This document shows positions 19,324 to 61,000 of a stretch of 64,000 nucleotides of DNA, piece by piece (position 1 is the first letter of the stretch; each line of letters begins with the position of its first letter). The position numbers and the translations under genes were made by a program. The stretch comes from Mytilus edulis (taxonomy: Eukaryota): assembly GCF_963676685.1 (NCBI RefSeq), contig NC_092352.1, positions 31,248,001 through 31,312,000 of the forward strand, read 5' to 3'. The notes under the pieces were generated by a model. The model was not told where the DNA came from. It worked only from the letters and a program-made list of their open reading frames with translations, and did no database searches.

Positions 19324-19360
19324 TAAGTTACAGTTTGGCTATGTTATATATACGTCTATT

Positions 19361-32831: not shown

Positions 32832-32875
32832 ACGCCAGACGCGCGTTTCGTCTACATAAGACTCATCAGTGACGC
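32832..32875 (-). ncRNA. Type I hammerhead ribozyme (copy 4)
   Basis: Identical to copy 1. Confidence 0.9.
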
Positions 32876-33800: not shown

Positions 33801-34469
33801 TTTGCATTCTCTTGACAGTTGTTGAGTAATCTTGAAACAATGTTAAAAAAAGGAGGAGATGCCGTGGGTACTTCGCAACCAACAAGGAAAATTGTAGTCT
33901 ATATCATACTATACAGAAAACTTAAAATTGAGTCCAAAACCTGTGGTTAACTCAGATATTCCGTTTCTGCTCACCTAGTGTCATCTGTCCTGATGCTCAT
34001 GAAAAGGAAAGTTTCAGTGATATTATATTGAAATTATCAGTTTCCATTCAAAATGGGGGACAAATGGGACACGACAAGAGTAAAATATGTTTGTAATTGT
34101 TAGGAATGTTTTGTAACCTCTTGGTGTGACCTTTTAGTGTTTATCTTTGATTACCTTGTTATGTTATATTACTGATTTTAACGTTTACCTCATATCTGTT
34201 TTTAAAAATTATCAACTTAACATTTGCATACATAATCAACAACTACTTAATATGTAAATGATTTTAATCAATTATTGAGTTACTGTACATACATTTTCGT
34301 TGTTAATATCTTTATGAAATAAGCAAACCCCTTTCGCTCATATAAATACAAGTTTTAATAGATCTATAAACAATAAGACCATGTGGTATGATTTACAATC
34401 AGACAACACTCCACTAGAGACAATATGACATAGAAGTTATCAACTATATGCCACACTATAAGATTAATA

Positions 34470-35921: not shown

Positions 35922-36343
35922 GATGTTTGTACAATTCCGTTTTCCTTATATGATTTAAGAACGAACCGTTCCATGTGAACAGATTTGGCATCAAAATAAT
36001 GATGTGTGATTAAATCGAAGTTTAAATACTTCAAAAGACAAGAGGTCGACACCGTTAAACATACTGATATTTCATATTTAATTAATTAGATAGAACTTTA
36101 GTCGTACATATGATATAGAACTCAATCAGGACATCATGAATAAGTTTTCAACTTTAAAATTTGAAGTGCAAATGTTTGTATTGTAATATTCGGAAGTCCT
36201 AAAGGGGGACACTTCATTGTTCCCTGTCCGTAAGCACGATTAAATAGTCCGATATCTCAATTAAGTAATTAGTTAATTATCTCGAGTTTTTCATCGTTAT
36301 CTCGATTTTAATAATTCTTATCTCGATATATGTAGTCGTTATC

Positions 36344-40914: not shown

Positions 40915-41745
40915 GTGATCCGATGGATAAATCTGTTGTAGAGTTTTCACTGGCTCAGACGTACTTATAAATATAATTATTTTCTGTGACTGTATCTTAC
41001 ATTAATTTGTAGGATCCTTTACTATAGATAATTTAGCTGATCTGTATTTATAACATCTCCATGCCTTATATATCATGTACTGTAGTACGACGCTAGATTA
41101 AAACTGAGGTGGAAAGGTAACACCTGGCCACCGAAAGCTTCATTTTACGAAGCCCAGGTGGTCGTGCGGTCTAGCAGGACGGCTACAGTGCAGGCAATTT
41201 GGTGTCACGATATCTCAGTAGCATGGGTTCGAATCCCGGCGAGGGAAGAACAAAAAAACAGATCTAACATTGTTGGGTTGATGTTTAGACGAGTTGTATA
41301 TACATAATGCACACAGCCATGTATCACCATCACTGCAGGTGATCCGATGGATAAATCTGTTGTAGAGTTGTCACTGGCTCAGACATAATTATAAATATAA
41401 TTATTTTATGTGACTGTATCTTACATTAATTTGTAGGATCCTTTACTATAGATAATTTAGCTGATCTGTAAAAATAACATCTTCATGCCTTATATATCAT
41501 GTACTGTAGTACGACGCTAGATTAAAACTGACGTGGAAAAGTAACACCCGGCCACCGAAAGCTTCATTTTATGAAGCCCAGGTGGTCGTGTGGTCTAGCG
41601 GGACGGCTACAGTGCAGGCGATTTGGTGTCACGATATCTCAGTAGCATGGGTTCGAATCCCAGCGAGGGAAGAACAAAGAATTTGCGAAAGCAAATTTAC
41701 AGATCTAACATAGTTGGGTTGATGTTTTGGCGAGTTGTATACATA
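40915..41745 (+). mobile_element. tRNA-derived (SINE-like) tandem repeat, 424-bp unit x about 2
   Basis: A box (GGTGGTCGTGYGGTCTAG) and B box (GGTTCGAATCC) in heads at 41152..41245 and 41576..41669; ends in (TA)n. Confidence 0.8.
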
Positions 41746-42602
41746 TATATATATATATATCAATGAAGAGACATTATTTGTCAAAATCCGGATATGGTGT
41801 AAAAAAAAAGCACCTCATGTTGTGTTTTAACATCTTTGTCGCAAGTTTATTGTTTTCTACTTGATATTAAATTAATATAGAGATTTATTTTGTTACACCT
41901 TGTGATCAATTTAATAGGCAATCGTCAATGACAGTCAGCAGGGTTTAAGCACTTTAATTGTTCGACCGTTAGTCAAATGCGTTTTGTAAAAATATTTTTT
42001 TTACTCTTTTGGTCTTTTGGAACATGTTGCTTATGCTGAATTTAGAACCCTCGTACTCGAAATTTGATACATGCACACGTATAAAAATTGCGGTTTTTAT
42101 CCAAATTTTATGACGTTTGAAGGTCAGAGAAATCTTATTAGGATGTCTTTATTAAATAATATAAAGATCTGGTAATAGTGCTTTTTACGCTTTTACTATT
42201 GGATTTTATGTGTTTTTTTTTTATGTGAAAGTGACATTTCATGTCTCAAATTCGTTGTATTGTTATAGCTGATATCTAAACTGTAAGATAATAAAAGTAC
42301 GATGTTTGTTTATTTTCTTAAAAAGCAGAAATGCATAGAATACACAAAACATGTTTAAGCTCTCTTTAATAATTCAAACTTTTCTTTAAGTTCCCTCCAT
42401 AGAGGATACATCGTAGAAATGAAAAGTATGGTACATTTTAAAACAATAAGTCTCATTAAAAGCCTTTCTGGATTTTTTTTTCTTCGAAGTTTATTAGAGA
42501 ATTTAATGCAAAGTGAAAATAGAATGCAAATAAAATCTTAGTTCTCTTTTCCGAGTAATATACAACCAGAACAGATTAAAAATCACATTCACAAACAGAA
42601 AT

Positions 42603-44009
42603 TCAGACATATCCCCCTTCCTTCAACATTGGATTCAAAAATACGTATGCAAGGTATGAATGGACAGCTATCGTTGCAAGGAACAGTAAATAATCAAAAG
42701 CCCGCGAAACTGTTACCCAGGTCATTTCTTCTGGAACCCTACAAAACCAGCAACGTTCTGAGCATGTCAACTTCTTTGTATACGGTGGTGGTTCTTCGAT
42801 TTCTTCACGTTTCTTCCATTTGTCCCATTTTACATTTGAGACCCCAAACTTGTGTTCTTGTGGTAGGTAGTAGACATCAAATTTTCGTTTTTTATCTGCA
42901 AAGTCATATGACGAAATAGATATACCATCTGGGTGAATCGTTGCTTTCTTTTCCCGCTTACATCTGCATACCATGCAACACATTGTACCAACTATGAACG
43001 CTACAACAGACGGTACTTTAAGGTCAACAGTCTTAAGATGTTGTCTGACAGTAAAAATAGAAATTATTGTTATTACACCACTAAAGGCCATTAAAATCAC
43101 GATATACAGTGACAAGGTAGACAGCGGATTAGATGTTCTAGGAAGATTATCACCAATAATTGTCAGAAAAACTGAGAATGTTAAATAAACAGTCATAGAA
43201 AAACCTACTCTACCATGATCTATTGGCATGAGGAATGCAAATCCATTTATGATTCCCAATAACAAAATAGGTGCAGCTAAAACTATTACAAAATACGTAG
43301 AACGACGCTTTAAGTGAATAGTAAACGACACATAGGTAGCTTTGCTTGTTGACTTAGTGCTTACTGTTGTAGTATTCATATCCCAGACAATGTTTTGAGC
43401 GAAGTCTGTCGTGTCAAGACTTGTAGAAGTAGTGGAAAGTGCTAATTCTTCCGGTGAATAATCAAGGTGCGACATATCAAATGAACATGTCTGTGAATCA
43501 AACGGAAAAAGTTCGATATTCACATCACAACCAGCCTTAATGATAAAAGCAGGCTTCCAGGTATGGGTGCCGTCAAATCTCACGTCAATTAGATCATTGT
43601 TAGTCCCAACGACGGAAAGCTGATCAACGCCATTGTACGTGTATATCGGTGGATACCAAAGATCAGACCGGGGTATTTTTGCTGTAGTGATGACATCTAT
43701 AACTCCCACTGGTTTTTCGGTCCATGTTAGAATTTCACTTTTCCAGGAAATTATGAAATTACCCACTAAGGTTATTGTTCCATCCCTATCAGAGAATTCT
43801 TGTATGTTGTCAAGTTTCATTGAAATACTCACATTAAGCTGGTCGGACTGGTTGTTCATAGGGAAACTAAGTTTGTTATAATCAGCAAATATCTTATTGT
43901 AAAAGAACTGCCAGTCTGATGCTAAAGTAACTCCGTTTGCAGTTTGGAAACATAACAAAAAGATGAAAAATCCTCCAAAGTTGAACGGTGATAATTTCTT
44001 GTCCGCCAT
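42603..44009 (-). CDS. nAChR-like non-alpha subunit (gene 7), single-exon CDS
   Basis: CDVNIELFPFDSQTC; four TMs; M1-M2 linker PIDHGRVGF without the -1' Glu. Confidence 0.93.
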   Translation of the reverse strand: MADKKLSPFNFGGFFIFLLCFQTANGVTLASDWQFFYNKIFADYNKLSFPMNNQSDQLNVSISMKLDNIQEFSDRDGTITLVGNFIISWKSEILTWTEKPVGVIDVITTAKIPRSDLWYPPIYTYNGVDQLSVVGTNNDLIDVRFDGTHTWKPAFIIKAGCDVNIELFPFDSQTCSFDMSHLDYSPEELALSTTSTSLDTTDFAQNIVWDMNTTTVSTKSTSKATYVSFTIHLKRRSTYFVIVLAAPILLLGIINGFAFLMPIDHGRVGFSMTVYLTFSVFLTIIGDNLPRTSNPLSTLSLYIVILMAFSGVITIISIFTVRQHLKTVDLKVPSVVAFIVGTMCCMVCRCKREKKATIHPDGISISSYDFADKKRKFDVYYLPQEHKFGVSNVKWDKWKKREEIEEPPPYTKKLTCSERCWFCRVPEEMTWVTVSRAFDYLLFLATIAVHSYLAYVFLNPMLKEGGYV

Positions 44010-44392
44010 GTTGATGTATAATTAAAACATTTGGCAAAACATCTCTTGTTATAGTTGAACTCCATATCTGATCAGGTGTAATTATTTGTAATCAACTCGA
44101 AAACAAAAGATTTATTTAAATGATGTTTTTGAATAACAATACAACAAATGTATTAGTTTTAATTCAGCATTTTAAAGTTGTTCATCATATTAAAGCTGTG
44201 CATGTATGTTAAACATAGAGCCGGGTGATATAATTTCGTTAGCAGAATAGAAGGTTTAATGATTAAACGAAAGACATTATTTGATGTTTGTCATTTCACC
44301 TTTTTTTATTTGATCCATAATAAAAACAAGTATAGGCACACCCAGTGCTTCAATCTTTTGACTAGACATAAACTTGAATTATATTTTATTAC

Positions 44393-47300
44393 GGGTGTTG
44401 CTAAACGGCGGAAACGGAAAACGGAACGGAATACGGAACGGAAACGGAAAACGGAAACAGGAAGAATTAACATCTTTTCTTTTTGGTTATTTTATCTACA
44501 TAGTCATGTTTTATATAGTATACACATGTTCAAAAGAAAAAAAAAACCAGGGGAATAAATTTAAAATAAAAGATTTTAAGCAAAAAGTATTGAAATAACT
44601 ACCAGAAGATGTGACTATGTTTTTGAAATATTTGATAAGGTCATGTGTAATCGTTCGTGCGATTCAGGATAGTCTGTTCGAATAAATCCTTTGCATCATT
44701 TTTTTCTGTGCTTCTTTTTTAATTGCCTTGATTCAAGATTAGTGATGTGGTGTATCTTGTTGCGTTGTTCTGCAAGTGGCTGCTAGCTTGAGCTTGGTTG
44801 TTCTGCACTGGTGCTTTTCGTTGTATCTTTTCTTGTATAATGCGGGAAAGAAAACGTAAAAGAAACAGGACAATGGTGTATGGACAAAATCCGATATGGA
44901 AACCAGGGAACTAGAATAGAAACTTGTATGTACTTTATTTTTAAGAAAAAAAAAATATGACAAAATCTCTCACTACACAAAGCCTTTCTCACCCTTTTAC
45001 AATACTCAAGGATTTGTATAGTAAATCCTTGCAATACTGAAGCATGCTGTTTGGTATTTACATAGGAAAAGCATTATATCCTCTAGAATTTAAATCAATA
45101 AATATGAATTGATGTGCAAAAAGTGGCGAACAATTAGTAGCCTACATGGATATAAACGATTTGCACAGTGCCCTCACCAAGTTAGTCGTAGTAATATCCT
45201 AAGGTTTTCAAAATCAAATTGTCCACGCTGCTTTAAATATCATGCCGCTTAATTCTGCTCTGAAAACTTAATTCCTCTCAAGCAGCCGTGACTTTTATTT
45301 CATAATATTACAATTGCAAATAGTGTCACTCATTCAGTATGCTGTTTTACTATAGTAGAAAACATACAAAGATAGGCGAAAAATACCAAAGAGTTATTCA
45401 AGCTCAAAAGTCGAAAACAAACCGTCAAAGCCATGACTAAAAAAGAAAAGGTCAAAAAGACCAAAAGACAAACAGACAAACAATTGTACACAAAATGCAA
45501 CATATAAACTAAAGGCTGAGCAACACGAACCTCACCAAAAACTTGGGGTGATCTCAGCTGCTCCGGAAGGGTATATAGATCCAGCTTCACATGTGACACC
45601 CGTTAATATAGATATACATTCACACAAAAGGAATATTGAAATTTGAAAAGAACTTTTATTTATATTGGTAGTCTTTAGTGATTTTGATGCTATGTCAAGA
45701 AAACTGAAAACTCATTCTGTTCTGTCCTTTTTTTTATGACGGAAATGATACTTTATTTCACACTACGCATCTGCTCGTTTGGATGTTTCTACTAGCCATA
45801 CACACGATTTTCCAAGATATCACTGATATCATTTACTAAATAACACCTGACCCGATTTTCCAAGATATCGCTATTATCATTTACTAAATAACACCTGACC
45901 CGATTTTCCAAGATATCACTGATATCATTTACTAAATAACACCTGACCCAGAACATTTCCTTGAGATCCCCAGAATCAACGGCATGTTGGACCTGTTTGA
46001 TGTTGTTAAATTTACCACAACTCTTTGCTTGCGTACGGCCTTCAACAATGAACAAAGCCCATACCACATAGTCAGCTATAAAAGGTCCCGAAATAACAAT
46101 TTTAAAGAATTCAAACGAGAAAGCTAACGGCCTTATTTATGTACAAAAGACAGGCAGCCTGTAATTCAGTGGTTGTCGTTTGTTTATGCGTTACATATTT
46201 GTTTTTCGTTCACTTTTTTTATATAAATAAGGCCGTTAGTTTTCTCGTTTGAATTGTTTTACATTGTCATAACGGGGCCTTTTATAGCTGACTATGCGCT
46301 ATGGGCTTTGCTCAATGTTCAAGGCCGTATGGTGACCTATAGTTGTTAATGTCTGTCATTTTGGTCTATTGTGGCAGTTGTCTCATTGGCAATCATACCA
46401 CATCTTCTTTTTTTATACATACATACAGAACGTGGCGGGGTTAGACATGTTAGCAGGATCCCAACCCTCCCCTAACCTGGGACAGTGGTATAACATAACA
46501 ACATAAGAACGAACTATAAAAATCAGTTGAAAAGGCTTATCGCATCAAATAAACACAAGTACAAGTGGACGTGGCCGGGTACTTGTACATTCCCATAACA
46601 AAAAGATACTAGGTACAGATCTGAGAGTACTCGCAGTTAACTGACAGCTAGTTCAAAGCCACTAACAACTAACAAAAAGATCATGCATCTAAGACGTAAA
46701 GCATTGGTGATATTATATTATCTAGACGGTAACGCATTATGTTGGACTATACTATATGTTGCAGCATCTGGATGCAGAGAATGCATGTTTGAGACACTTA
46801 ATTAGCGGAAATGCACAAATGTCTCCTGTTGTTTATTCATCAGGTATTGCACTAGTATTGATGATTGTTAAAAAAAGTGAATAATAATATGATAGCTGCT
46901 ATTCATTCTCTATTTTTAAGGTCTATTTTTTTTACATTCTATGGCCTTTTTCTTCTGGCCCTCATACTTTTTTATGTATTGAATCAATATTCTAATTTTG
47001 TTCTTGCCCAAACTTAAGTTATTATGTCTTTCCATTTTGGATGTAACGGTTTATTTAGTGGTACATATTTAGTTGATGTCTTCTTAGTTGATACAAATAT
47101 AGTAAAATGTTCATTCAATGTCTTTTGCTCTGTCATGGTCGTTTTCTGCTGGTTCTAAGATCTGCTTTAGTCTTTAGTGGTATACTTTGAGAGAGTTCTT
47201 TTTTTATATGACCTGGCCTGGCTAAGTGAGCTTTTCTCGTCACTTGGCGTTCGTCTTCCGATTTCGTCTTTGTTAACTTTTACAAAACTTCGCAGTCTCT

Positions 47301-48159
47301 GAAACTACTGGGCCAAATGTTATTGCACATTTGTCTTTTAGGGAGTCGCCTGATAGTCTTGGTTAAACTTTGCAACAATTACCATTGGTGTATCTAGTTT
47401 AGAAACTGTATTGGATAACCCTGCCTGTCCGCCAAGCCGATATAGCTAAAATTAAAACATAGGGATAACATGCAAGTGCTGTCTATTAAAAAAACGCTAT
47501 GAATAACGAAAACCTGATGTGAAAAACATGTCTAATCTGACATCGGACTCGGACTTCTTTTAAAATGAGTTTTCCTGTGTGTATTGCTTCATATGTAGTT
47601 TATTCTTCATTTGCTAGAGGTATAGGGGAGGGTTGGGATCTCACAAAACATGTTTAACCCGCCGCATTTTGCGCCTGCCCCAAGTCAGAAACCTCTGGCC
47701 TTTGTTAGTCTTGTGTTTTTTCTAATTTTTATCTCATTTATATGTTTTGGAGTTTAGTGTGACGCCCATTTTCACTGAACTAGTACACAATTTTATTTAG
47801 GGGCCAGCTGATACCACCTCCGGTTGCGGGATTTTCTCGCTGCATTTACGACCCATTGGTGGCCTTCGGATGTTGTCTGCTCTTTGGTCGGGTTGTTGCC
47901 TCTTTGGCATATTCCCCGTTTTCATTCTCATGACTTCTTATAGGAGTTATCGACCCTATATTACGAATTTCCTCACTCGCATGTTCGCCTGTTACATTGA
48001 AATATATGATAAATAGATAGAAACTTTAAATAGCAAAATTTACCAGCAAGACAAGATCTATTGATTTTCATAGTTCTTTGTTTCCACCCTTAAATTCCGT
48101 CTATATAAATGATATTTCCGTTTCCGTTTCCGTTCCGTTTCCGCCGTTTAGCAACACCC
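44393..48159. mobile_element. Non-autonomous MULE-type element with nested repeats
   Basis: TIR GGGTGTTGCTAAACGGCGGAAACGGAA with subterminal ACGGAA repeats; 9-bp TSD TTTTATTAC at 44384..44392 and 48160..48168. Confidence 0.88.
45805..45948. repeat. 48-bp tandem repeat x3
   Basis: Unit CGATTTTCCAAGATATCACTGATATCATTTACTAAATAACACCTGACC. Confidence 0.9.
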
Positions 48160-48917
48160 TTTTATTACTTCTATTTCATCAATTTATACTGACATAATGT
48201 ATAGCATGTTTTCCCTAAAGTCTCCGTTGACGAATTATGAAAAATGGACTTTCTAAAACGGCAATAAGTGAAACAATATTGACAAAAAATGACATGAGGA
48301 AATCAAAACAACAACGCACCACCACAACAACAGTCATAGCAAAATTAGGACCACAATTAACCAGAATTAAGCATACGCAAATTTTTTAGGTACTTTTTCA
48401 AAATCAAAACTGTTTGCAATTTATCAGTTTACAACGAATTTTTTTTTAAAATAAACTCGACAAAACTATTTACTTGCCTGCGATTTCAAGAATTTCTAGC
48501 TGTATATTCTCCTATTTATAATGACTTGTGTGCCGGCTTGTTGACAGTGACGTAGGATTACAAACCATTATTGTTTTTGGATATCAGAAATGTAATACTT
48601 CCCATGTGTAAGCTACCATCTGATCCTTTTACGGATATTTTTCTGGTATTTTTTTGGTTATTTTTTTACGATGTTGTATTTATCTGCATTTTGGCAGCTG
48701 TTTGACCCCAAAAGGATTTATCAATTTAACCCTTTTTATTTTCACTTAGAAAAACTTTGTTTTTGTTAATAGAGAAACCTATGATACAACTTTTAAATAC
48801 TATTGTACACCTTATGAATGTTTTTGCAATTTTGTCCTATAATATTCGTTTGGTCCTTTTTTGTGCATATCTCTTCATAGTTTTTATAAGCTTTGGATCT
48901 TCAAATATTTTGGCCTC

Positions 48918-48964
48918 GAGCATCACTGAAGAGACATTGATTGTCAAAATGCGAATTGGATGCG
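48918..48964 (+). pseudogene. Degenerate hammerhead of a second family (CTGAAGA core)
   Basis: GCATCA-CTGAAGA-GACA ttgat TGTC-AAAA (GAAA mutated); a related remnant lies at about 41760..41800. Confidence 0.55.
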
Positions 48965-48997
48965 AAAATTTGGTACCGTTTGTGTTATAACATAATT

Positions 48998-49115
48998 CAT
49001 TTGCCAAGAAAAATTTCAGACTGGGTTATACGTTGCATCTATTTTAGAGAACATGTCTCCATTATCTAGAACAGATGCAACGTATAACTCATTCTAAAAT
49101 ATTTCTTGGCAAATG
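48998..49115. repeat. Long imperfect palindrome (arms of about 51 bp)
   Basis: CATTTGCCAAGAAA...GTTATACGTTGCATCT / AGATGCAACGTATAAC...TTTCTTGGCAAATG. Confidence 0.85.
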
Positions 49116-49503
49116 ATGGGTGCACTTTTAGAGAGTTTTCAGTGCCTGTATTTCATATAATTATATATTTTGTGCTATAGCGCTAACAGTTAAATGATAT
49201 TTACTCGTTTTCTAGACAATTAAATAAATGGATAGCTAACCATATGTTATTTTAGCACATTGTGTTGTCTTGACGTTTTATAGTATATCGCAAACAGTCT
49301 GCTTGTCAGTCAGAACACGTGTCCAGATAATTTAAAAGTACTCATATTCGTTTTGAAATTTTTACATACTGCTTTCCACAACGAAGAATATATCAAATTT
49401 ATTTCACTTTATTTGAATTGTCTGTTTTCATGTTTGTCGCTTCATTTATGTACCTTAATGGTTTAAAGTTGTAGCTTTTTTTTTTCATTGAAAGCTGCTT
49501 TAA

Positions 49504-49711
49504 GGAGGTAGACTTAGGTTAAGGGAAATAACTCCTAAAATCATCAGTACGTTTGTGTCAACCATTTTCAAAAACATATTCTAAGCTTCTAGGTTACATA
49601 GATTATTTTTAATCTGTTTCAGGTAAATGCTTAAAAAACATTGATGAACTTGACTTTTACAAACGCTTAACTGATTTAAAGAGTTATCTCCCTGAACCAA
49701 GGTCTACCCCC
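49504..49711. mobile_element. Kolobok-like MITE
   Basis: About 31-bp imperfect TIR GGRGGTAGAC...ATAACTC; TTAA TSD; GG...CC termini. Confidence 0.75.
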
Positions 49712-49732
49712 TTAAACGAACAATACGAATAC

Positions 49733-50278
49733 GGAAAAGACACTCTTACACCACAGTTATAAACTGTAATACAAGATGGAAAAGACACTCTTACACCACA
49801 GTTATAAACTGTAATACAAGATGGAAAAGACACTCTTACACCACAGTTATAAACTGTAATGCAAGATGGAAAAGACACTCTTACACCACAGTTATAAACT
49901 GTAATACAAGATGGAAAAGACACTCTTACACCACAGTTATAAACTGTAATACAAGATGGAAAAGACACTCTTACACCACAGTTATAAACTGTAATACAAG
50001 ATGGAAAAGACACTCTTACACCACAGTTATAAACTGTAATACAAGATGGAAAAGACACTCCTACACCACAGTTATAAACTGTAATACAAGATGGAAAAGA
50101 CACTCTTACACCACAGTTATAAACTGTAATACAAGATGGAAAAGACACTCTTACACCACAGTTATAAACTGTAATACAAGATGGAAAAGACACTCTTACA
50201 CCACAGTTATAAACTGTAATACAAGATGGAAAAGACACTCTTACACCACAGTTATAAACTGTAATACAAGATGGAAAA
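49733..50278. repeat. 45-bp minisatellite x12, nearly homogeneous
   Basis: Unit GGAAAAGACACTCTTACACCACAGTTATAAACTGTAATACAAGAT. Confidence 0.95.
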
Positions 50279-51054
50279 TAACTAAATAAAAAAATATTGT
50301 TTGTATTGAAATCATGGCTTGTAATACAATGAAAATGAATCGCAAATTTGCTCCACATATATTCTTTGATTTAGTCACTAATTTTGTATCAAATCAAGAC
50401 AAAAGAATGTTCAATCGTTTGAAATATATATTTCTCTCACATGTACGACCTTCTACATTGTTAAATACGGCACGAAACGAGATGAGCAATTTAATTGTTT
50501 GGTATTTGTTTTGTGTCTTTCTCCACTGAACCAGAAGTATCAATGTTATCGACGGTGTAGGGGATATCATTGCATATCTCTGTGTCAAAAACTAAATAAA
50601 ACAATAGTACTTTAATTGTATAGTGACGTATATTTGATATTTTATTATCGTGTTGTACGAAACAATGAGGTAATCGAACTGGTCCTAAAATTAAAATACC
50701 ATTGTTTAAGAACCACCATGGTTTTATATCAATTGGTGTTTACTTAATGACGTCCATTGTCATAACATTCAAAACAAATAGTTATAACTGTAGAAATTTC
50801 AGTGTAAATGTTATACTGGGCACGTGTATTATTTGATTTTGATATACATTGTAATAAACAAATAGATTTAAAAAATAAAAGAACGAAAAAGCAAACTAGC
50901 ATAATTTAAAGGCACCATCCATATAATAGGACAAAGGTTCAAAAAGAAAAAAATGTGAGAGGGACAGAAAGAATAAACATAAAAATCATCAAGAGTAGAC
51001 TATAAAAATGGTTTTCTGTATATTTTATAATTTTTCTTTTAATAAGACATTAAT

Positions 51055-53407
51055 CACGGTCGACACTCGGCTAACCGAGAGATTGGTCGGTTAATCTATA
51101 TTGAGTATGCGGCTATATGGGCGATTGGTCTGTTAATCGGGTTGGCTATACGTCTGTTAAGAGTAAAACGCACAATTTAATGTTAAACTCTATCAAATAT
51201 ACAGATTTTTGGCATATTATAAGAATCAAATCAAAAAAAGAAAAGTGTCTGACAAAAGGATATCTATCATAGAACATTTTCCACCTTTAAAAACATTTCA
51301 TAGTCTGCGCAGTTTTCGGCAAAAGTAAAAGGCGTCGCGCAAGTATGTAGTATTTATGATTACACGCATAGCAATTTTTTTTAATAAAAGGCGAAACAAA
51401 CAATTTTAGATATCATTTAAAAGACACAAAATACTACTTTGGTTCTTAAATATAATTGACATTAGTAAATATTTCATAATTGTAATATAACGTGAGTAAT
51501 ACCACGTTTTAGTGAAAATTATGGCAATAAAGTCTGTTAATGGGTTGGACAATTGAAATTGTGTCAGTTAAGAGTTATTTAGCCACGAAAATAGTTTTGC
51601 TACCTTTATGAAAAAGTTAAGAATGGGATGTTCTTGAGTAAAAGCATTTTTATTTTGACTTTCTTTGCATTTTATTGAAGAGTGTGTCACTTCAATATAG
51701 CGTGATCTGGGTTGTTCGCTGGAATATGCATGAATTTATTATTAACGATTTCAATCGGCCTTAATTTTTGTGTCTGCTCAAAGTAGCATGTTCTCAAATT
51801 CGACTGAACGTGTTATTCTAATACAACACAGGGTACAGTATAACGTGTTGTCGTTCTCATATGCACATGATATTTGTCACTGGACGTTTAACCCTAATTC
51901 GTCAGCATCATCCATTTAGTTCTTTTCTTCTATTACTTGATCATCTGTTGTTTACAAATAATTATAAAAAAAGTAAATGGAAAGGAGCGAATGCAGCTAC
52001 ATTTGGTTGTATTAAGTTTTAATTCATTTTATTCCGTTTAGTTCCTTTTCTACATATGTGCAGAGGAGAACTGCAGTTGTCCACATGTAAACTTCAAGCA
52101 TTTGTCACCAATATGAGTACATCGCAATCCGTTACTGTTTCAACACCCAGGGGGTTTCATGTCTTCAACAATTATTTTTTCTCTCTCTCTTTTTTAGCAA
52201 TGCATCACATGGATTCGAGCGTCACTGATGAGTCTTTTGAAGACGAAACGCGCGTCTGGCGTATATACTAAATTTAGTCCTGGTATCTATGATGAGTTTA
52301 TTCTCTACTTATCTTTTATTTATATTCTGTATCTCCATCCAGATTCTCGTGTATACCATGAGGGTCCGGATTGGGGGTGTTGATTATTTCTGTATTCTTT
52401 AAATTGTTATGTTACTTTTCTCTACATTTTATTTATCTTACTCATTATTTTTTCTCTATTCTTTATGTTTAGGCATTCCAATATATTTTACTTACTGATG
52501 TTTAGTTACATTACGACTTTAATACTGGTTACCAATGTAGATGACAAATTTGTGTCATTCATGACAATTAAACAGAATCCACATGATATATGCGACCATT
52601 CTCGGATAAAATCAAATTTACTTTAATTTAACACTTTTTTGAAACCATTTTTATCAATTTTCAATATCCATTGCCTAAATTGTTAATTATTGTTCATGTG
52701 TTTTGTTTCCGTATATTTTATATTCCATTGCTCATGTTTTGTTTCCGTATATATTTTATGTTCCATTGCTCAAGTGTTGTTTCCGTATATTTTAGCCGCT
52801 CGTCTTGAGCCTACCAAATTAACACACCATAAAGTAATAAAATTATACTTTTATTGTCATTCATAACTCTTAACAGACCAATTAACAGACCGGGTTTTAT
52901 ACATCCGACCCATTAACAGACCAGGTTTTAAATAAAGATTGATTTATGTCACCAAAATACAGATTTACGTGTAGATTTTTCACACAATGATATCAATTTG
53001 GTTAACACACATAATGCCTGTCTTTTTTCGATGTTTAAAATATTGCATGCAAGTAAATTCAACCAAAGTGTCATTTTGTGTACATTTTGTGTGTGTAAAA
53101 TGTGTATAAATTTATTGATGAGTAACTTGCCTTTTTATTTTATAGATCGTACATAGAAGCTAGAAAAATAATAATTACACCACTGAATTCAGTACATTGA
53201 ATAGTTTTGTTAGACATAAATATTTTTTATGATAAAAATATATTTAAAAGGTAATACAATAAAACATGCTGAGTTTTCAATGATTTTCTCGATAACACCT
53301 GATTAACAGACTTTAGCCAACCCGATTAACAGACCAACCGCCGATATAGCCGCATACTCAATATAGATTAACCGACCAATCCCTCGGTTAGCCGAGTGTC
53401 GGCCGTG
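51055..53407. mobile_element. Non-autonomous DNA transposon with CAC...GTG termini and a 5-bp TSD (Transib-like; Chapaev/CMC not excluded)
   Basis: About 95-bp TIRs (CACGGYCGACACTCGGCTAACCGAG...); TTAAT at 51050..51054 and 53408..53412; internal TTAACAGAC repeats. Confidence 0.85.
52219..52262 (+). ncRNA. Solo type I hammerhead ribozyme (retrozyme fragment, about 52212..52300)
   Basis: GCGTCA-CTGATGA-GTCTT ttg AAGAC-GAAAC gcgc GTC^TGGCGT; intact core with a different stem II loop. Confidence 0.85.
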
Positions 53408-53546
53408 TTAATACAACATGATAAATAATTTTATAACAACACGATATTAAGATGACTTTTCTTTGTTTACAAAACTGGGGAAAAGACAACGCGTACGACA
53501 ATTCATACTTCAACAAATTTAAATGCAAAAGATAAAATGAATATTT

Positions 53547-54881
53547 TCAGTTTGAAATAAAGTTTTCCTTTGCAAGATTGATCCAAGGATACATGAACAT
53601 GAGATACACACAGAAATTAAGAAAAAGAAATAAAAATAAGTAGAAAATGTCCATAGTCGATCCAACGGTTTTCCACTTTATTCGTGGAACTTTCTTCTCC
53701 TTTTCAATATCATCTTCCCCATCATCGTCTCTCCTGCGTTTGACTTTCACTTCCTTGACAAATGCCGATGCTGCTTGAAGTTTGAATCGTTTATTTAGAA
53801 TTCCATATCCCGACGGTGGTTTCCAGTCGCCGAGTGTTTTACCTCGACATGGGAAACACCACAACAATGAAACAAAACATGACAAGCATCCAGATACTTT
53901 AGACTTGCCATGTCGATGATAGATATGTAACGTAGACGATATATACGATAGAAGCATGATGTTCGTCAAAAACTGCCAATCAAGAAAATAAACTACAACC
54001 GGGATAGGAGATGTAGTTTTAGGTATTTCATCCGTGACAAGGTTTAAAACTATGGCAACAACAAGTGTTCCCGTAACGATATATCTTACTCTTGCTTGAT
54101 CGTATGGAATCATGAATGCAAGAATACTCATCACACCCGTTAGAAGGACCGGAACAATAAAATACATAGCAAAGAACGCCCCTCGACGCTGGATCTTTAT
54201 AGTATATTCCACTTTTGAGTACAATCCTAGAACATATGATGAAGAGGTTGACATAATATTCCAAGAAGGGTTTATAGCATACTGAGTGAGATCTATCGTG
54301 GCGTTCTCGACAGACGGATAAAGTGTGATCATTTCGCTTGTTATTTGCCAAGGTAAAAAGGATATAACACATTCGTGTGTATCAAAAGGATAGTATGTAG
54401 CATCCACTGAACAATATACTTCGAAATCAAAGTTAGTTTTATAGTAAATACTCCCGTCAGGTTTCAATACCACAGGCGTTGACGTATGACCAACACGAAC
54501 TAGGTCCTCCACCGAATTTGTCATGATAATGATAGGCATATAAACATCATCTTGTGATAAAGTGATATTTATAAGTGTTATTCCAGCATCTGTCAGAGGT
54601 TCTAGTATTAATTCATCCGTCCATTCCATTTCAATGAATCCCATTAATTCCAACACTGCAGCCTCTTCGTAGTATTCCTTGATTGCTGTTAAACCGAGGT
54701 TTATTGTAACCTGTAGTGGATCGTCCTGGATTAGTTTGGGACGTACTGCTGTATCATACTTTGTTTTAACTGCTGGTGGCTGGATAATGTCATCCAAAAA
54801 AGTCCCCACGTTCGTTGCAGTGTTTCCATAAATAACTGGTAAAATTCCAAATGCTATAAAGAAGATAAACTTATATTCCAT
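53547..54881 (-). CDS. Divergent nAChR-like non-alpha subunit (gene 8), single-exon CDS
   Basis: CSVDATYYPFDTHEC; four TMs; M1-M2 PYDQARVRY. Confidence 0.92.
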   Translation of the reverse strand: MEYKFIFFIAFGILPVIYGNTATNVGTFLDDIIQPPAVKTKYDTAVRPKLIQDDPLQVTINLGLTAIKEYYEEAAVLELMGFIEMEWTDELILEPLTDAGITLINITLSQDDVYMPIIIMTNSVEDLVRVGHTSTPVVLKPDGSIYYKTNFDFEVYCSVDATYYPFDTHECVISFLPWQITSEMITLYPSVENATIDLTQYAINPSWNIMSTSSSYVLGLYSKVEYTIKIQRRGAFFAMYFIVPVLLTGVMSILAFMIPYDQARVRYIVTGTLVVAIVLNLVTDEIPKTTSPIPVVVYFLDWQFLTNIMLLSYISSTLHIYHRHGKSKVSGCLSCFVSLLWCFPCRGKTLGDWKPPSGYGILNKRFKLQAASAFVKEVKVKRRRDDDGEDDIEKEKKVPRIKWKTVGSTMDIFYLFLFLFLNFCVYLMFMYPWINLAKENFISN

Positions 54882-55208
54882 TTTGAAATCTGCCTGAGAA
54901 GTGGAATTGAGTTCCTACTTGTAAATTTGTTCTGTTTTGATATTAAAACGACATTTAAAAACAAATACAATTTAAAAAATAGTAATGGCATGATCGCCTT
55001 AGAAAATCACAGTTCCATGTTAATAATTATCTAAACAACAAGTTTGCTCAAACACAATAACTTTCAATAGAATAGTATACAAAGTTAATTTACTAAATAA
55101 AATAAAACAATAAAGACATACCAAAGTCAGAAAATATGGTAACTTTATGATGTTCAATTAAATTGGATAGTTTTAATTCTTATTTTAACGTTTTAAACTT
55201 AATAGGAA

Positions 55209-56591
55209 ATGAAGTCTTCATTTGTTTTTACTGTGATTCTAGCAATGACCAAGTTTTCATTATTCAAGACACAGACGGAGTATCATGATAAATTCAGAAC
55301 CTACTTATCAGACGTGATTGAGAAAGAATCTGTACATGATGCAAGGATACGCCCGATGACAGATCAAGCAAACGCCGTAGATATTTCTGTGGAATTTCAG
55401 ATCATATCCATTAGTAAGCTTGATACCTTCTCCGGTTCCATGGATTTCGCTGGTAGATTAAAAATGAAATGGACAAGCGAAGAAGAAATAGTGCGTCCTG
55501 ATGAACAGAGAAACTGGTTGGACTTTGATGCAAGACTTGTGGAACAAGATAGTATCTGGACACCTGACATCACTGTTTATAACTCAATGGGCGAGCGGAA
55601 GCGACTTGGCGATTCGTCATTTCGTATTCAAATAGACATGGACGGTAGATGTGAATGGCTATTGGGAGTCGTTGATTCCACTTCTTGTACGTTTGATGTC
55701 ACTTTATTTCCGTTCGACAAACCAATCTGTAACATCGTGTTCACTACATGGAAATACAAAGCTGCCGAAGTTCTATTATCTGCTCTCAATGATAGTGTCG
55801 ATATGTCATTATACAATGAAAATAGTGAATGGACGATAGTTAATACTACCTCAAATCTAACAATTCAAAACGAGGTTTCATATCTAAACTATACGATTTA
55901 CTTTAAACGTGAAGCTGGGTTTGTTTTAGTGAATATGATTCTTCCCGTAATAGTAGTTTCCTTGCTAAATGCATTAGTATTTTTAGTTCCTGCAGAATCA
56001 GGAGAACGGTTAACTTATGCCGTTTTATTGTTTTTATGGTTTGCTGTTTATCTTGATATCATTTCCACAAACTTGCCTATATCGTCTGATAATATGTCCA
56101 ATTTATCTCTATTCGTCATTTCGATGGTTGGGTTAAGTATTTTAACGATATTTTTAGATGTTATTAGTGTAATGTTGTACAATCGCGATGACAAAAAACA
56201 AGTGCCTTGGTGTATTGAAGGTTTTGTTCGATGTTTACGCTGTCGGTGTGGTGGTAGTAATCGTAATCGAATTATTCCTTTCGAAGACGTTGAATCATTT
56301 GATCAGAACGGTGACACACAGATGCTAAACGGAAAAGCGCCGACGACTGTAGCGCTTGGCACGAAAAGTAATAACAAAGTAGAATTAAGACTGAGAGACT
56401 TTGAAATGCCGAGGGATGATTTAAAAAGAAAAGAAAACATTGAAAATGAACCTAGGAAGAGAAAATCAGATGAAGTTGATTGGAAAGTCGTATCTGTTAC
56501 ATTTGATTATATATGTTTTATATTAACCCTGCTTTGTACTTTAGGACTTTGTGGTTACTTTCTTGTTCCTTTAGTAACTGCAAATTCATAG
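55209..56591 (+). CDS. nAChR-like non-alpha subunit (gene 9)
   Basis: WTPDITVYN; CTFDVTLFPFDKPIC; PAESGERLTY; four TMs. Confidence 0.94.
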   Translation: MKSSFVFTVILAMTKFSLFKTQTEYHDKFRTYLSDVIEKESVHDARIRPMTDQANAVDISVEFQIISISKLDTFSGSMDFAGRLKMKWTSEEEIVRPDEQRNWLDFDARLVEQDSIWTPDITVYNSMGERKRLGDSSFRIQIDMDGRCEWLLGVVDSTSCTFDVTLFPFDKPICNIVFTTWKYKAAEVLLSALNDSVDMSLYNENSEWTIVNTTSNLTIQNEVSYLNYTIYFKREAGFVLVNMILPVIVVSLLNALVFLVPAESGERLTYAVLLFLWFAVYLDIISTNLPISSDNMSNLSLFVISMVGLSILTIFLDVISVMLYNRDDKKQVPWCIEGFVRCLRCRCGGSNRNRIIPFEDVESFDQNGDTQMLNGKAPTTVALGTKSNNKVELRLRDFEMPRDDLKRKENIENEPRKRKSDEVDWKVVSVTFDYICFILTLLCTLGLCGYFLVPLVTANS

Positions 56592-56752
56592 AAAATAACT
56601 ACAACTAGATGTAGTCAATCATTTGCAATTTGAAGGAACAGGGAAATGGGAAATGAAGAATGTAAAACGTGTGTTGTTTTCTTTGTATGTTTGTAATAAA
56701 GACATTATTGAGGTTTTCTCCAACAACATGATTGTTTCTGTTGATACATACT

Positions 56753-56848
56753 TTTCAATATCACACACCGTGTCAATTCCAAACTTTCAATATCACACAC
56801 CGTGTCAATTCCAAACTTTCAATATCACACACCGTGTCAATTCCAAAC
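56753..56848. repeat. 32-bp tandem repeat x3 downstream of gene 9
   Basis: Unit TTTCAATATCACACACCGTGTCAATTCCAAAC. Confidence 0.9.
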
Positions 56849-57119
56849 CATTTTGATACCTCGAGCAGAGCTTTTGGGATAATATTGGTGTCTCAGTTTC
56901 AACCAAAAAACCATAAAGCTATAAATATATAGAATGCATAAAAAAAAACGTAATAATGTTTTCTCATCAAAATTTTAGCTTTTGTAAATCGACACTTATT
57001 GAACAAAGATTAAAAAAAACCAAATCGCATACACTACGTTTAGTTGCTTGCGGATACATTAAAGGCATAATATATTGTGACTATCGTGTTCGACTATTAA
57101 CCCATGATATCCTTATCAT

Positions 57120-58975
57120 ATTGATCTTTGGAAGCCTTTGCAATAGAACCATTGGTATTCTTTATACTAGGATCTTTGGAACCTTTGTATTAAAACCTTT
57201 GGTATCCCTTTTATATTAAAACCTTTGGTATCCCTTTTATATAAAGATCTTTGGTAATCCTTTATATAAAGATCTTTGGTAATCCTTTATATAAAGATCT
57301 TTGGTAATCCTTTATATAAAGATCTTTGGTTATCCTTTATATAAAGATCTTTGGTAATCCTTTATATAAAGATCTTTGGTAATCCTTTATATAAAGATCT
57401 TTGTTATCCCTTTATATAAAGATCTTCTGTATATAATAAAGGCAACAGTAGTATACCGCTGTTCAAACTCATAAATCCATGGACAAAAAACAAAATCGGG
57501 GTAACAAACTAAAACTGACGGAAACGCATAAATATAAGAGGAGAACAACGACACAACACTACAATATAACTAACACACACAGAAACGGACCAAGCATCAG
57601 ACAAAATCCCACGAGAATAACAAATATAACATCAAAACCAAATACATGAATTTAGGATAGACAAGTACCGTGACACGTCTTATCGCAATGTCAATTTACA
57701 CTCAAAAATAAGAGAAAATAAACGACGCAACGTTAAATTGTAACACACACAGAAACGAACTATAATATAACAATTGCCATATTCCTGACTTGGTACAGGA
57801 CATTTTTAAAGGAAAAAATGGTGTGTTGAACGTGGTTTTGTGGCATGCCAAACCTCGCACTTTAATGGCAATGTTAAATATAACATAGAAAAGACAACAT
57901 AATATTACAGGACTACTTTACATTTGGACATTTGGTATCCTGTCTTAGGCTTTCGGTATTGTTCCTTTTAAGACATTTGGTAGCCTTTTTTTAAGGACCT
58001 TTGATATTATTTGTATTAAGATCTTCGGTATCCTTAACATTAAGAACTTTAATATCCCTTGTATTAGGTGAAGAATTTGGTATTCATTGTATTAGGTACT
58101 TTTAATATGTGGTATCCTTTGTATTAGGATCTTTGTTGTGTTTATTATTAGGACCTTTGACTCGTCCTATGCCATTCAGTAGCCTTTGTGATAGGACACT
58201 TGGTATCCGTTGCAGTATGACCTTTAAAAACCGTTGTATTAGGATCTTTGTTATGTTTATTATTAGGACCTTTGACTCGTCCTATGACATTCATTAGCCT
58301 TTGTGATAAGACATTTGGTATCCGTTGCAGTATGACCTTTTAACAACCGTTGTATTAGGACCTTTGTTATGGTATTCTTTGTATTAAGACCTTCGGTATC
58401 CTTTGTATAAGTACCTTTTGTAATATTTGCATTATGACCTTTGGAAGCGATTTATTAGGACCTTTGGTATCCTTATTACAATAAACTTTAGTAGTCATTG
58501 TAGTAGGACAATTGTTATCCTTTGTATTATGACCGCTTGTATTCTTTTGAATAGGACCTTTGGTATCCTTTGTAGTAGGAACTTTTGTATCCTTCGTATG
58601 TGGTCGCCTTTGCAATGGGATCTTTGGTAGCCTTTGTATTATGATCTTTGGTATCATTTGTATTTGGACCGTTTGTATCCTTTACACTAAGACCTTTGGC
58701 TTCCTTTTATGTTAGGATTTTTGGTATCCCTTTATCTTACGACCTTTGATATCCTTTGTATTATAATCTTTGGTATATTTACTTTTAAGACCTTTGTTAT
58801 CCTTTAAATAGGGACCTATGGGGTGTCTTTGTATTATAAGCTTTTGATATCCTTTGTATTAGGATCTTTGGTATCCTTTATATACTAATCTTCAGTATCC
58901 TTTGTATTAGGAAATTCCCTAGCATATGTATAAGGACATTTGGTATCCTTTCTTTTAAGACTTTCGGTATTCGTT
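57120..58975. repeat. Degenerate 24/25-bp minisatellite interrupted by a dispersed repeat (about 57436..57917)
   Basis: Consensus GGACCTTTGGTATCCTTTGTATTA; homogeneous 25-bp block at 57246..57425. Confidence 0.85.
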
Positions 58976-59716
58976 GAACTAGTAGCAGGAACGGTGTTTG
59001 ATTATATACTAGTTCAGCGAAATGGACGCCTCACTAATTTCCGAAACATCCAAATAAATCAAAATAAAAAAGAAAACCACAAAACCAACAAAAGCTAGAG
59101 GTTTATTGCTTGTGACAGACGGTGGATTTAAAAAAAAAGTTTTGTGAGATCACAAGCCTCCGCTTTACCTGCAGTTTATGTGGAATGTAAATTCATAGAA
59201 ATACGCATAGTTAAACTCCGTCTAAAAAATGTATTTGTATTATTGTTAGGGGTACTTTTTGTTCATTCTGATTTACTACTGAAAAAAAACAACCAAAACT
59301 TTAAACCAAATTGAATGTTTAATTAGGTATCATAATTGTCATTGGTAACTACCTATCTTTCAAATTGCTTTTTCTAGGGGAAAGGGTTACAGGTAGAAGT
59401 GAATACAATTTGATTGACCCTTTAAGCAGCCAAATCCTAAACGCATTTCAGGTGAACCCATACTTTATCTTTCTAAATTTGAGTTGTTATTTTAGAATAA
59501 TTCTTACATGTCAAGGTAACCTGACCCTAAAAATAAATAAAGATACAAGTCATAGGATTTGAATGAAAGTGTTTTCACTCTGATAATTATAAATTGACTT
59601 GGAACTTAATACCGTCATTGTACTTGCCACGTTATAACTTTAAAAATTAAAAACAAAAGTTTTAAATTTTGGTAGAAACTGTTAACACGTTACGTTGCAC
59701 TTTAAGATTTATAAAA

Positions 59717-61000
59717 ATGGTTGCAAAATTAATTGTTTTCCTCCTAATCTTCACATATTTTGGATTAGCGGGATCAAAAGACTTGAATGAACTGAAGGAC
59801 CTGTTATACTTGTCACATTACGGCCCTGACAATCCGTACGACTCGAGGATATTTCCATGCCACTTTGAGTACTGTCTTGTTGGAGTAGAACTAAGTTTTC
59901 AACCGAAGTCGATAACAGGATTTGTTATGGAGACGGGAATTCTGTCGCTGACTGGTAAAATATCTTTATCATGGGTTGATGAAAACATCGGAGAATGGAT
60001 GATTGGTTCCGAGCACAGCAGCATTACCGAAATGATTTTACCGGAAGATTATCTATGGCTTCCTACAATAACTGTTTACAATACGGTTAAAGAATTCAAA
60101 ATGATAAGCGATCCAAGCCATAAAGTGCGAATTTTGCCTATATCCGGAACAGGAACTCAGTCCCCCATTGAATGGGTGACAACTCTTATAACAGATATAC
60201 CATGCGTCATAAATGTTAAATATTATCCATTTGATGAACAGACATGCGAAATTGTTTTCACGCCATGGGGTTATAACGTTTCAGAGGTATATCTTTACAC
60301 AGCAGACGACGTGTTGAATACAGCCCAATACGAAGTAAACGAAGAATGGACTATGGAAGCTGGGGCTGCATCTAACTATTCTGTTGATGGAATTTCTTAC
60401 CTTAAATATGAGTTTAAACTTAAGAGGAAATATTTGTGGTTCTTTATAAATATGGTAGCACCGATCATTTTACTAAGTATGTTGACAGCTTTTGTAAACA
60501 TGATTCCTGTTGATTGTGGCGAACGACTAACTTTTCTTCTGACCATATTTCTAGGACTTGCGTTTTATATGGACATGGTTCAAAGAACAATACCGAGAAC
60601 ATCAAACCCAATGCCTTTTATTTCATTCTATCTAACAGGTATGGTTTACCTCAATTCGTTTGCTATCATAATCAACATCTTTCTGATGAGGATTTACAAC
60701 AAAGACCCCGATTCAACTGTTCCAGTGGCGGTTAGATGTTTCATCGCAACGCTCACTTGGCGATGGTGCTGTCCCAAAAAAGTCAAACCGGATCCGGATG
60801 CTGTCCAGCCAATCGAAACTGACAAGGAACACACCATTCCAGTAGAAACAATCACTCTAGCACCTATGGAGAGAATAGACTGGCGAACAACAGGAATAGC
60901 ATTAGACATTCTTTTCTTCTACGTATTTACTTTTATGCATGTGCTTTGTTCCATTCTGTTTCTAGTGCCACTTTCACAAGGGGCAATTTACAATATTTAG
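59717..61000 (+). CDS. nAChR-like non-alpha subunit (gene 10), single-exon CDS
   Basis: First ATG at 59717 (MVAKLIVFLL signal peptide; the ORF track used an upstream TTG); CVINVKYYPFDEQTC; PVDCGERLTF; four TMs. Confidence 0.93.
   Translation: MVAKLIVFLLIFTYFGLAGSKDLNELKDLLYLSHYGPDNPYDSRIFPCHFEYCLVGVELSFQPKSITGFVMETGILSLTGKISLSWVDENIGEWMIGSEHSSITEMILPEDYLWLPTITVYNTVKEFKMISDPSHKVRILPISGTGTQSPIEWVTTLITDIPCVINVKYYPFDEQTCEIVFTPWGYNVSEVYLYTADDVLNTAQYEVNEEWTMEAGAASNYSVDGISYLKYEFKLKRKYLWFFINMVAPIILLSMLTAFVNMIPVDCGERLTFLLTIFLGLAFYMDMVQRTIPRTSNPMPFISFYLTGMVYLNSFAIIINIFLMRIYNKDPDSTVPVAVRCFIATLTWRWCCPKKVKPDPDAVQPIETDKEHTIPVETITLAPMERIDWRTTGIALDILFFYVFTFMHVLCSILFLVPLSQGAIYNI

What the first reader, a model, noticed from the sequence alone, without database searches (positions are those of the whole stretch)
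54020..54112. Gene 8 pore has an anion-channel-like filter (Ala -1', Arg 0', extra Arg 2')
Seen: M1-M2 reads PYDQA-R-V-R-YIVTGTL against PADSGE-R-V-G-YAVTAFL in neighbours. The linker is one residue shorter, Glu -1' is replaced by Ala, and Arg occupies the pore-facing 2' position (register anchored by T6', L9' and D20'). Known: Glu -1' sets cation selectivity, Ala -1' typifies GABA-A/glycine receptors, and Lymnaea has anion-selective nAChRs. Inference: an independent charge-selectivity switch, or an inhibitory/modulatory subunit within a cationic cluster.
Basis: partly seen in the sequence, partly recalled or inferred. Interest (0 to 1): 0.7.

Follow-up and report, generated by a model that had tools for sequence, protein, structure and literature searches.

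The report
Mussel receptor subunit with arginine-lined pore
A mussel gene of the nicotinic-receptor family has lost the acidic residue that normally lets cations through and gained a conserved arginine predicted to face the pore, so it likely dampens or partly reverses the ion preference of channels it would join, by a route unlike known chloride channels.

Summary
Gene 8 (53547-54881, minus strand, 444 aa) is the eighth of ten nAChR-like genes in a Mytilus tandem cluster. Its M1-M2 reads PYDQA-R0'-V-R2'. The motif is kept in three named Mytilus species and two unnamed relatives at 76-78% identity, so it is not an allele or assembly error. Arg2' occurs in 1 of 155 nAChR-like M2 sites sampled in this genome.

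The interpretation needs correcting. This is not a GABA/glycine-type filter: there is no Pro-2', no Thr13', and the linker is two residues shorter than in this genome's GABA/Gly-type subunits. The oyster orthologue reads PFDQG-R-VG. So Glu-1' was likely deleted long ago, and Ala-1' likely descends from Gly; only Arg2' and a remodelled membrane domain are mussel-lineage novelties. Adjacent gene 7 also lacks Glu-1'.

Published mutants still make an anion-leaning filter plausible. The most likely role is an accessory subunit that cuts cation and Ca2+ flux and admits some Cl-; this is untested. Unexpectedly, the cytoplasmic loop is 96-98% identical across orthologues, far above the rest of the protein.

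The parts
53547..54881 (-). Gene 8: single-ORF nAChR-like Cys-loop subunit, 444 aa, single copy in the genome
   Evidence: (Pfam LBD 104.6 bits; TM 27.2 bits, just under the 28.1 cut-off)
54369..54413 (-). Cys-loop, C157-C171
54093..54107 (-). Shortened M1-M2 linker PYDQA: Glu-1' absent, Ala at -1', Asp at -3'
54090..54092 (-). Arg0' (R264), start of the M2 helix in the model
54084..54086 (-). Arg2' (R266), predicted pore-facing; unique among sampled paralogues; Gly in oyster orthologues
54021..54092 (-). M2 helix 0'-23' with T6', L9', I13', N16', D20', E21', P23'
53676..53927 (-). M3-M4 cytoplasmic loop (residues 319-402), net charge +10, 96-98% identical in orthologues that are 70-74% identical in the extracellular domain
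42603..44009 (-). Gene 7: second Glu-less, short-linker subunit (PIDHG-R, Gly2'); candidate partner
55206..56591 (+). Gene 9: divergently oriented neighbour that keeps Glu-1' (PAESGE-R); candidate partner
546..61000 (.). Tandem cluster of ten nAChR-like genes (eight single-ORF, two split over two coding exons); none of the eight single-ORF genes has vicinal Cys in loop C

Best explanation
Gene 8 encodes a conserved nAChR-like subunit that lacks Glu-1' and carries Arg at 2', and it likely works as an accessory subunit that would join mixed pentamers and there cut cation and Ca2+ flow while letting some Cl- through. Shown: the residues, their conservation, their rarity in the family, and the Gly-1'/Gly2' state in oyster orthologues. 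Inferred: Glu-1' was deleted before mussels and oysters split, and the mussel line later added Ala-1' and Arg2'. Also inferred: Arg2' points into the narrow cytoplasmic end of the pore; five such Arg would nearly plug a homomer, so one or two copies per pentamer is the likelier form; each copy swaps a negative charge for a positive one at the filter. The basic, ultra-conserved cytoplasmic loop likely binds a conserved partner.
For: Motif PYDQAR[VI]RY is in all 17 rows of the mussel-type group that cover M2 (one row, P0008, is the window's own protein, and the rows fall into three independent lineages). Arg2' is in 1 of 155 sites in the genome and 0 of 169 in library representatives. On an ideal helix 2' lies on the same face as 6', 9', 13', 16', 20', and the model starts M2 at R264. 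Purifying selection: 25 of 28 listed variant sites in the gene are synonymous. Literature: E-1'A abolishes Ca2+ permeability in alpha7; Arg at 9' in the alpha1 subunits narrows the pore to 2.4 A, cuts currents and gives Cl- conductance at positive potentials only; alpha7 with P-2' and E-1'A but hydrophobic 13' gave no functional channels, and gene 8 has Ile/Met13'. Eight Glu-bearing subunits lie in the same cluster.
Against: No co-assembly, expression site, ligand or current was observed. Lack of vicinal Cys does not imply an accessory role, since the eight single-ORF cluster genes all lack it. Pore-facing M2 positions are not significantly more conserved than the rest (6 of 7 versus 9 of 17 invariant, p=0.19). 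Asp-3' may pair with and neutralise an Arg. Long mussel branches also occur in genes 4, 9 and 10, so fast evolution alone does not show a functional switch. The precedent is at 9', not 2'.
Confidence: 0.45

Rival explanations
1. A true chloride-selective channel, as a homomer or with the other Glu-less subunit (gene 7), reached independently of the Pro-Ala route.
For: No Glu at -1', two Arg in the first turn of M2. GlyR with P-2' deleted stays mildly anion-selective, and outer-ring charge barely affects monovalent selectivity, so D20'/E21' do not exclude it. Cytoplasmic loop net +10. A second Glu-less gene lies next door.
Against: No Pro-2', no Thr13', no Arg19'; M1-Pro to 0' distance is 20 against 22 in 11 of 11 GABA/Gly-type sites. 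The extracellular domain stays acidic (net -16, neighbours -9 to -19), and position 21' is Glu where the non-mussel orthologues have Ile, Val or Thr. The basic loop is also present in oyster orthologues without Arg2'.
Confidence: 0.25
2. A non-conducting subunit: Arg2' helps seal or silence the pore, and the protein acts through its cytoplasmic loop as a scaffold, trafficking factor or dominant-negative regulator.
For: The loop is the most conserved part: 82/84 and 81/84 identical against about 74% elsewhere (p 7e-8 and 5e-7), while three neighbour pairs show no such excess. All 10 listed variants in the loop's coding region are synonymous. M1-M3 is no better kept against the non-mussel orthologues than the extracellular domain (29 vs 31%, 35 vs 36%), whereas it is higher in all six neighbour pairs (significant in four). 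Loop A Tyr is lost relative to oysters.
Against: T6', L9', D20', P23' and the Cys-loop are kept, and the whole protein is under purifying selection. Loop conservation predates Arg2' (49-50% to the P0270 and P0268 orthologues). No partner or motif was identified.
Confidence: 0.2
3. An ordinary cation-channel subunit: the short linker twists the helix start so that Arg2' snorkels to the cytoplasm or pairs with Asp-3', leaving selectivity little changed.
For: Asp-3' is invariant in the clade. Linker length changes are thought to re-orient charged side chains (PMC2233820 discussion). The outer ring and vestibule are acidic.
Against: 2' is Gly, Ser, Thr or Ala in 154 of 155 paralogues, which points to a tight lumen position. 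Arg has been kept across lineages 22-24% diverged.
Confidence: 0.1

Closest known systems
Expanded intronless, tandem nAChR-like genes of bivalves (Jiao et al. 2019, PMC6896357)
   Same: Single-ORF gene in a tandem array, non-alpha type, degenerate ACh site, orthologue in an oyster (Saccostrea echinata).
   Different: No pore or selectivity analysis found in that paper. Gene 8 has Arg2', a short Glu-less linker and an ultra-conserved cytoplasmic loop.
Anion-selective nAChRs of Lymnaea and Schistosoma SmACCs (PMC4055736, PMC4562599)
   Same: Nicotinic scaffold without Glu-1', Ala at -1'.
   Different: Those carry Pro-Ala. Gene 8 has no Pro-2', a deletion, a pore Arg and no vicinal Cys. Selectivity is measured there, not here.
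GABA-A and glycine receptor type chloride channels
   Same: Ala-1' followed by Arg0'.
   Different: Linker two residues longer, with Pro-2' in 11 of 11 and Thr/Ser13' in 11 of 11 sites in this genome. Gene 8's best sequence and fold matches are nAChR and 5-HT3.
Human muscle AChR mutant alpha1 L251R (PMC6800317)
   Same: A pore-facing Arg in part of the subunits of a nicotinic pentamer.
   Different: A disease mutation at 9' with Glu-1' kept; here a conserved natural Arg at 2' with Glu-1' gone.
AMPA/kainate receptor Q/R-site Arg (recalled, no call)
   Same: One subunit brings an Arg into the pore and removes Ca2+ permeability of mixed channels.
   Different: Unrelated fold, tetrameric, made by RNA editing; analogy only.
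Cephalopod chemotactile receptors (PMC13174522; bioRxiv 10.1101/2025.10.28.685082)
   Same: Intronless nAChR-derived genes with remodelled binding sites.
   Different: Placement of gene 8 in the CR or CR-like clade was not tested; no ligand known.

Membership tests
nAChR-like Cys-loop receptor subunit | Ligand-binding domain with Cys-loop | tested here: met
   PF02931 at 104.6 bits, cut-off 26; C157-C171
nAChR-like Cys-loop receptor subunit | Four transmembrane helices and nAChR fold | tested here: met
   Model helices 234-257, 264-283, 295-321, 403-440; all 32 listed Foldseek hits are nAChRs; PF02932 27.2 bits is just under its 28.1 cut-off
Expanded bivalve intronless tandem nAChRs | Uninterrupted coding sequence in a tandem array | tested here: met
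   One ORF, ten genes in 61 kb
Alpha-type ACh-binding subunit | Vicinal Cys in loop C | tested here: not met
   Loop C has no CC
Alpha-type ACh-binding subunit | Aromatic box (loop A Tyr, loop B Trp) | tested here: not met
   Loop B Trp kept, loop A Tyr replaced by Thr
Pro-Ala anion channels (GABA-A, GlyR, Lymnaea and schistosome ACCs) | Pro at -2' | tested here: not met
   Gln at -2'; Pro in 11 of 11 anchored GABA/Gly-type sites of this genome
Pro-Ala anion channels (GABA-A, GlyR, Lymnaea and schistosome ACCs) | Linker one residue longer than in cation channels | tested here: not met
   M1-Pro to 0' distance 20, against 21 (152 of 155 nAChR-like) and 22 (11 of 11 GABA/Gly-type)
Pro-Ala anion channels (GABA-A, GlyR, Lymnaea and schistosome ACCs) | Ala at -1', no Glu | tested here: met
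   Met by position; the orthologous residue in oysters is Gly
Pro-Ala anion channels (GABA-A, GlyR, Lymnaea and schistosome ACCs) | Polar 13' (Thr) | tested here: not met
   Ile or Met at 13'
Pro-Ala anion channels (GABA-A, GlyR, Lymnaea and schistosome ACCs) | Measured chloride selectivity | not testable with these tools
   Needs electrophysiology
Cephalopod chemotactile receptors / CR-like clade | Phylogenetic placement with CRs | not tested
   No CR sequences were fetched
Cephalopod chemotactile receptors / CR-like clade | Gating by poorly soluble environmental ligands | not testable with these tools
   Needs a ligand screen

The most novel reading that the evidence does not exclude
Mussels built an anion-preferring nicotinic-type pore in two steps not found in the searches made here: an old deletion of the selectivity Glu, then a pore-facing Arg2'. 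With or without the Glu-less neighbour gene 7 this would be a chloride channel with no Pro-Ala motif. It would be a natural test of whether side-chain charge alone sets selectivity in pentameric channels, and oyster orthologues supply the intermediate state.
Probability: 0.25. Interest if true: 0.75.

Novelty: new variant of a known kind. Interest (0 to 1): 0.5.

Why it matters
How sequence sets cation versus anion selectivity in pentameric channels is disputed: Pro-driven geometry versus charged side chains (PMC2233820). This lineage offers a natural three-step series on one scaffold: Glu-bearing paralogues, the Glu-less oyster orthologue with Gly2', and the mussel gene with Arg2'. That makes the question directly testable. 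It also hints that bivalves' many orphan nAChR-like genes include pore-tuning subunits, and motif-based annotation (GEK/GER versus PAR) would not classify it. The near-invariant cytoplasmic loop is a separate lead to a conserved partner.

Tried and rejected
Assembly or allele artefact: rejected. Contigs from six runs of six studies span M2 with no difference there (one may be the assembly's own sample), and orthologues agree.
Shifted register with R266 as 0': rejected; it loses L9' and P23' and breaks the oyster alignment.
Ala as a direct Glu replacement: disfavoured by parsimony and by gap placement; codons cannot decide.
One origin for the short linkers of genes 7 and 8: neither shown nor rejected (p-AU 0.052, quick tree of 28 of 66 rows).
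DNA-level constraint as the cause of loop conservation: disfavoured, as synonymous variants occur throughout it.
Expression: no RNA holder listed. Two small-RNA raw-read runs gave no reads on the gene, which is uninformative.
No orthologue DNA from the metagenome scan, so no dN/dS between species. The search for shorter proteins added two fragments only. The Atlas search with the loop alone gave no hit above 0.84. A search for gene 9's upstream exon in the window found nothing, so no shared promoter is shown.
No complex prediction was run: a pass would follow from likeness to solved pentamers, and no pore electrostatics could be computed.
Earlier scan findings: none.
Four key papers were not held (van Nierop 2005; Cymes 2005, 2008, 2016), so I rely on secondary passages.
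Not found in print: paper searches (listings only, except papers named as read) and 7 of 8 supplements of PMC6896357. One picture file there and the MolluscaGenes supplement could not be read and may bear on novelty.

Full report
What is there. The window holds ten nAChR-like Cys-loop genes between 546 and 61000: eight as single ORFs and two split over two coding exons. Gene 8 is the ORF at 53547-54881 on the minus strand, 444 aa. Its nearest named relatives are Mytilus coruscus, M. trossulus and M. edulis proteins at 96-99% identity. A search with its cytoplasmic loop finds one copy in the genome. Its sequence and predicted fold match vertebrate nAChR and 5-HT3 subunits.

Observation. M1-M2 reads PYDQA-R-V-R-YIVTGTLVVAIVLNLVTDEIP, giving A-1', R0', R2', T6', L9', I13', N16', D20', E21', P23'. 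The register holds: P23' and L9' fall in place, and the oyster orthologue aligns without a gap. Contigs from six runs of six studies cover M2 with no difference; one could be the assembly's own sample.

How unusual it is. I took 177 loci from own-genome searches, two of which scored only their best 150 candidates (of 260 and 464), so this is a sample and not the whole repertoire. Anchoring gave 168 distinct sites. I dropped one false window anchor and one false antisense row, leaving 11 GABA/Gly-type and 155 nAChR-like sites; 11 loci gave no anchor, 8 of which looked GABA/Gly-type on inspection. Among the 155, position -1' is Glu in 141, Asp in 6 and non-acidic in 8. Position 2' is Gly, Ser, Thr or Ala in 154 and Arg only in gene 8. 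The distance from the M1 Pro to 0' is 21 in 152 and 20 in three (gene 8, gene 7, L059). It is 22, with Pro-2', in all 11 GABA/Gly-type sites. Among 169 M2 anchors from 149 library representatives none has a basic 2'.

History. Two unnamed clusters at 76-78% identity keep PYDQAR[VI]RY. A more distant set at 34-38% identity, including Saccostrea echinata, reads PFDQG-R-[VI]GF. These group with gene 8 at SH-aLRT 99 in two quick trees, with a long stem leading to the mussel-type group. From the family consensus PxDSGE-R, the simplest path is loss of Glu, leaving Gly at -1'. L059 shows that deletion with DSG-K intact, and HMMER places the gap at the Glu. The mussel line then changed Gly-1' to Ala and Gly2' to Arg (inference). 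Gene 7 and its oyster and pearl-oyster relatives also have the short Glu-less linker; a single origin is neither shown nor rejected (p-AU 0.052). Long mussel branches are seen in genes 4, 9 and 10 too, so speed alone proves little. Gene 8 is, however, the only gene tested whose M1-M3 is no better conserved against non-mussel orthologues than its extracellular domain (29 vs 31% and 35 vs 36%, against 47-62 vs 34-48% in six neighbour pairs).

Constraint. Of 28 listed variant sites in the gene, 25 are synonymous (the tables were truncated, with 65 and 28 rows not shown). Pore-facing M2 positions are invariant in 6 of 7 cases against 9 of 17 elsewhere, which is not significant (p=0.19). The M3-M4 loop is 82/84 and 81/84 identical to the two unnamed relatives while the rest is about 74% (p 7e-8 and 5e-7). 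Three neighbour pairs of similar overall distance show 64-77% with no excess; their species may differ. All 10 listed variants in the loop's coding region are synonymous, so the constraint is on the protein. The loop has net charge +10, as in the non-mussel orthologues (+8 to +11).

What known mutants say. Pro-Ala is called the defining feature of Lymnaea and schistosome ACh-gated chloride channels (PMC4055736, passages). Converting alpha7 needed a Pro insertion, E-1'A and V13'T; E-1'A alone removed Ca2+ permeability; P-2' plus E-1'A without a polar 13' gave no function (PMC2233820, abstract, first part of the introduction, first part of the discussion). Gene 8 fails these tests. In the same paper GlyR lacking P-2' stayed mildly anion-selective (3.81 against 27.9), and outer-ring charge hardly mattered. 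An Arg at 9' of the muscle alpha1 subunit narrowed the pore, cut currents and carried Cl- at positive potentials only (PMC6800317, parts 1 and 3 of 5). So a Glu-less, Arg-lined constriction should lean towards anions, but by charge and not by the Pro-Ala geometry. Against a full switch: the extracellular domain stays acidic (net -16), D20' is kept and 21' is Glu, 13' is hydrophobic, and Asp-3' may offset an Arg.

Mechanism. I put 0.45 on an accessory subunit that brings one or two Arg into mixed pentamers and lowers cation and Ca2+ flux with some Cl- leak. I put 0.25 on a true chloride channel, 0.2 on a non-conducting subunit acting through its loop, and 0.1 on no real effect. Pore orientation of Arg2', co-assembly and all effects on current are inferred; none was measured. 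Gene 8 lacks vicinal Cys and the loop A Tyr, so it is unlikely to supply a classic ACh site, but this is true of much of the cluster and does not mark it as accessory.

Compared with what is known. It is a member of the intronless, tandem nAChR expansion of bivalves (PMC6896357, parts 1 and 3 of 6, passages and 7 supplements), where I found no pore analysis. [quoted passage not shown] It is not a member of the Pro-Ala anion class. I found no report of a conserved Arg2' in the searches, but subscription journals are mostly not covered. Other papers seen as passages only: PMC4562599, PMC9565810, PMC5715906, bioRxiv 10.1101/2025.10.28.685082. The Q/R-site analogy is recalled.

Verdict. A real, conserved and rare pore variant in a known gene expansion. 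Interest 0.5.

Noticed in passing
window 53676-53927 (-): Gene 8's cytoplasmic M3-M4 loop is its most conserved part (96-98% among the mussel-type group, about 50% to P0270 and P0268), the reverse of its neighbours. No partner or motif identified.
   Followed up: partly
window 42603-44009 (-): Gene 7 also lacks Glu-1' (PIDHG-R). Its oyster and pearl-oyster relatives read PIEEG-R and PLEEG-R, so the mussel form has fewer acidic residues in the linker.
   Followed up: partly
L127, L128, L177, L165, L159 (G000 C8:10.94-10.96 Mb, C175, C10:48.33 Mb): Other paralogues lack Glu-1' with a normal-length linker (KSGA-K, KSAQ-K). These are better candidates for a direct Glu-to-Ala change; L159 also has Arg16'.
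   Followed up: no
L063, L076 (G000 C13:23.8-23.9 Mb) and L059 (C14:9.33 Mb): Two paralogues with Thr-1' (LKSGT-R) and one with an independent-looking Glu deletion (VDSG-K).
   Followed up: no
window 55206-56591 and 59666-61000 (+): Genes 9 and 10 have odd pores too: Asp16' in both, Leu6' and Trp10' in gene 9, Arg20' in gene 10.
   Followed up: no
window 55201: One contig has 59 unmatched letters before 55201, next to an AG just upstream of gene 9's start, which suggests an intron in the 5' untranslated region; the upstream exon was not found in the window.
   Followed up: partly
window 11887-14250 and 15542-17679 (-): Genes 2 and 3 have one coding intron just after the Cys-loop and loop B, unlike the other eight; splice sites not checked.
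   Followed up: no
window 36673-37866 (+): A 397-aa ORF with a weak Mutator-family transposase match (PF00872, 22.8 bits) lies inside the cluster.
   Followed up: no
window 6557-7558 (+): A 333-aa ORF with no Pfam match and a 51-bp in-frame tandem repeat (RRKSISNPSGEFGKSLQ units).
   Followed up: no
window 35778-35870: Gene 6 carries a 48-bp tandem duplication near its N-terminus that adds Cys-containing repeats.
   Followed up: no
window 53300-53410: A very high-copy short repeat downstream of gene 8 drew small-RNA reads in one run (11 molecules starting at 53304).
   Followed up: no
P0270/P0058 and P0040/P0045: Orthologues of gene 8 and of other cluster genes share the same longest-contig length, hinting that the cluster is syntenic outside mussels.
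   Followed up: no
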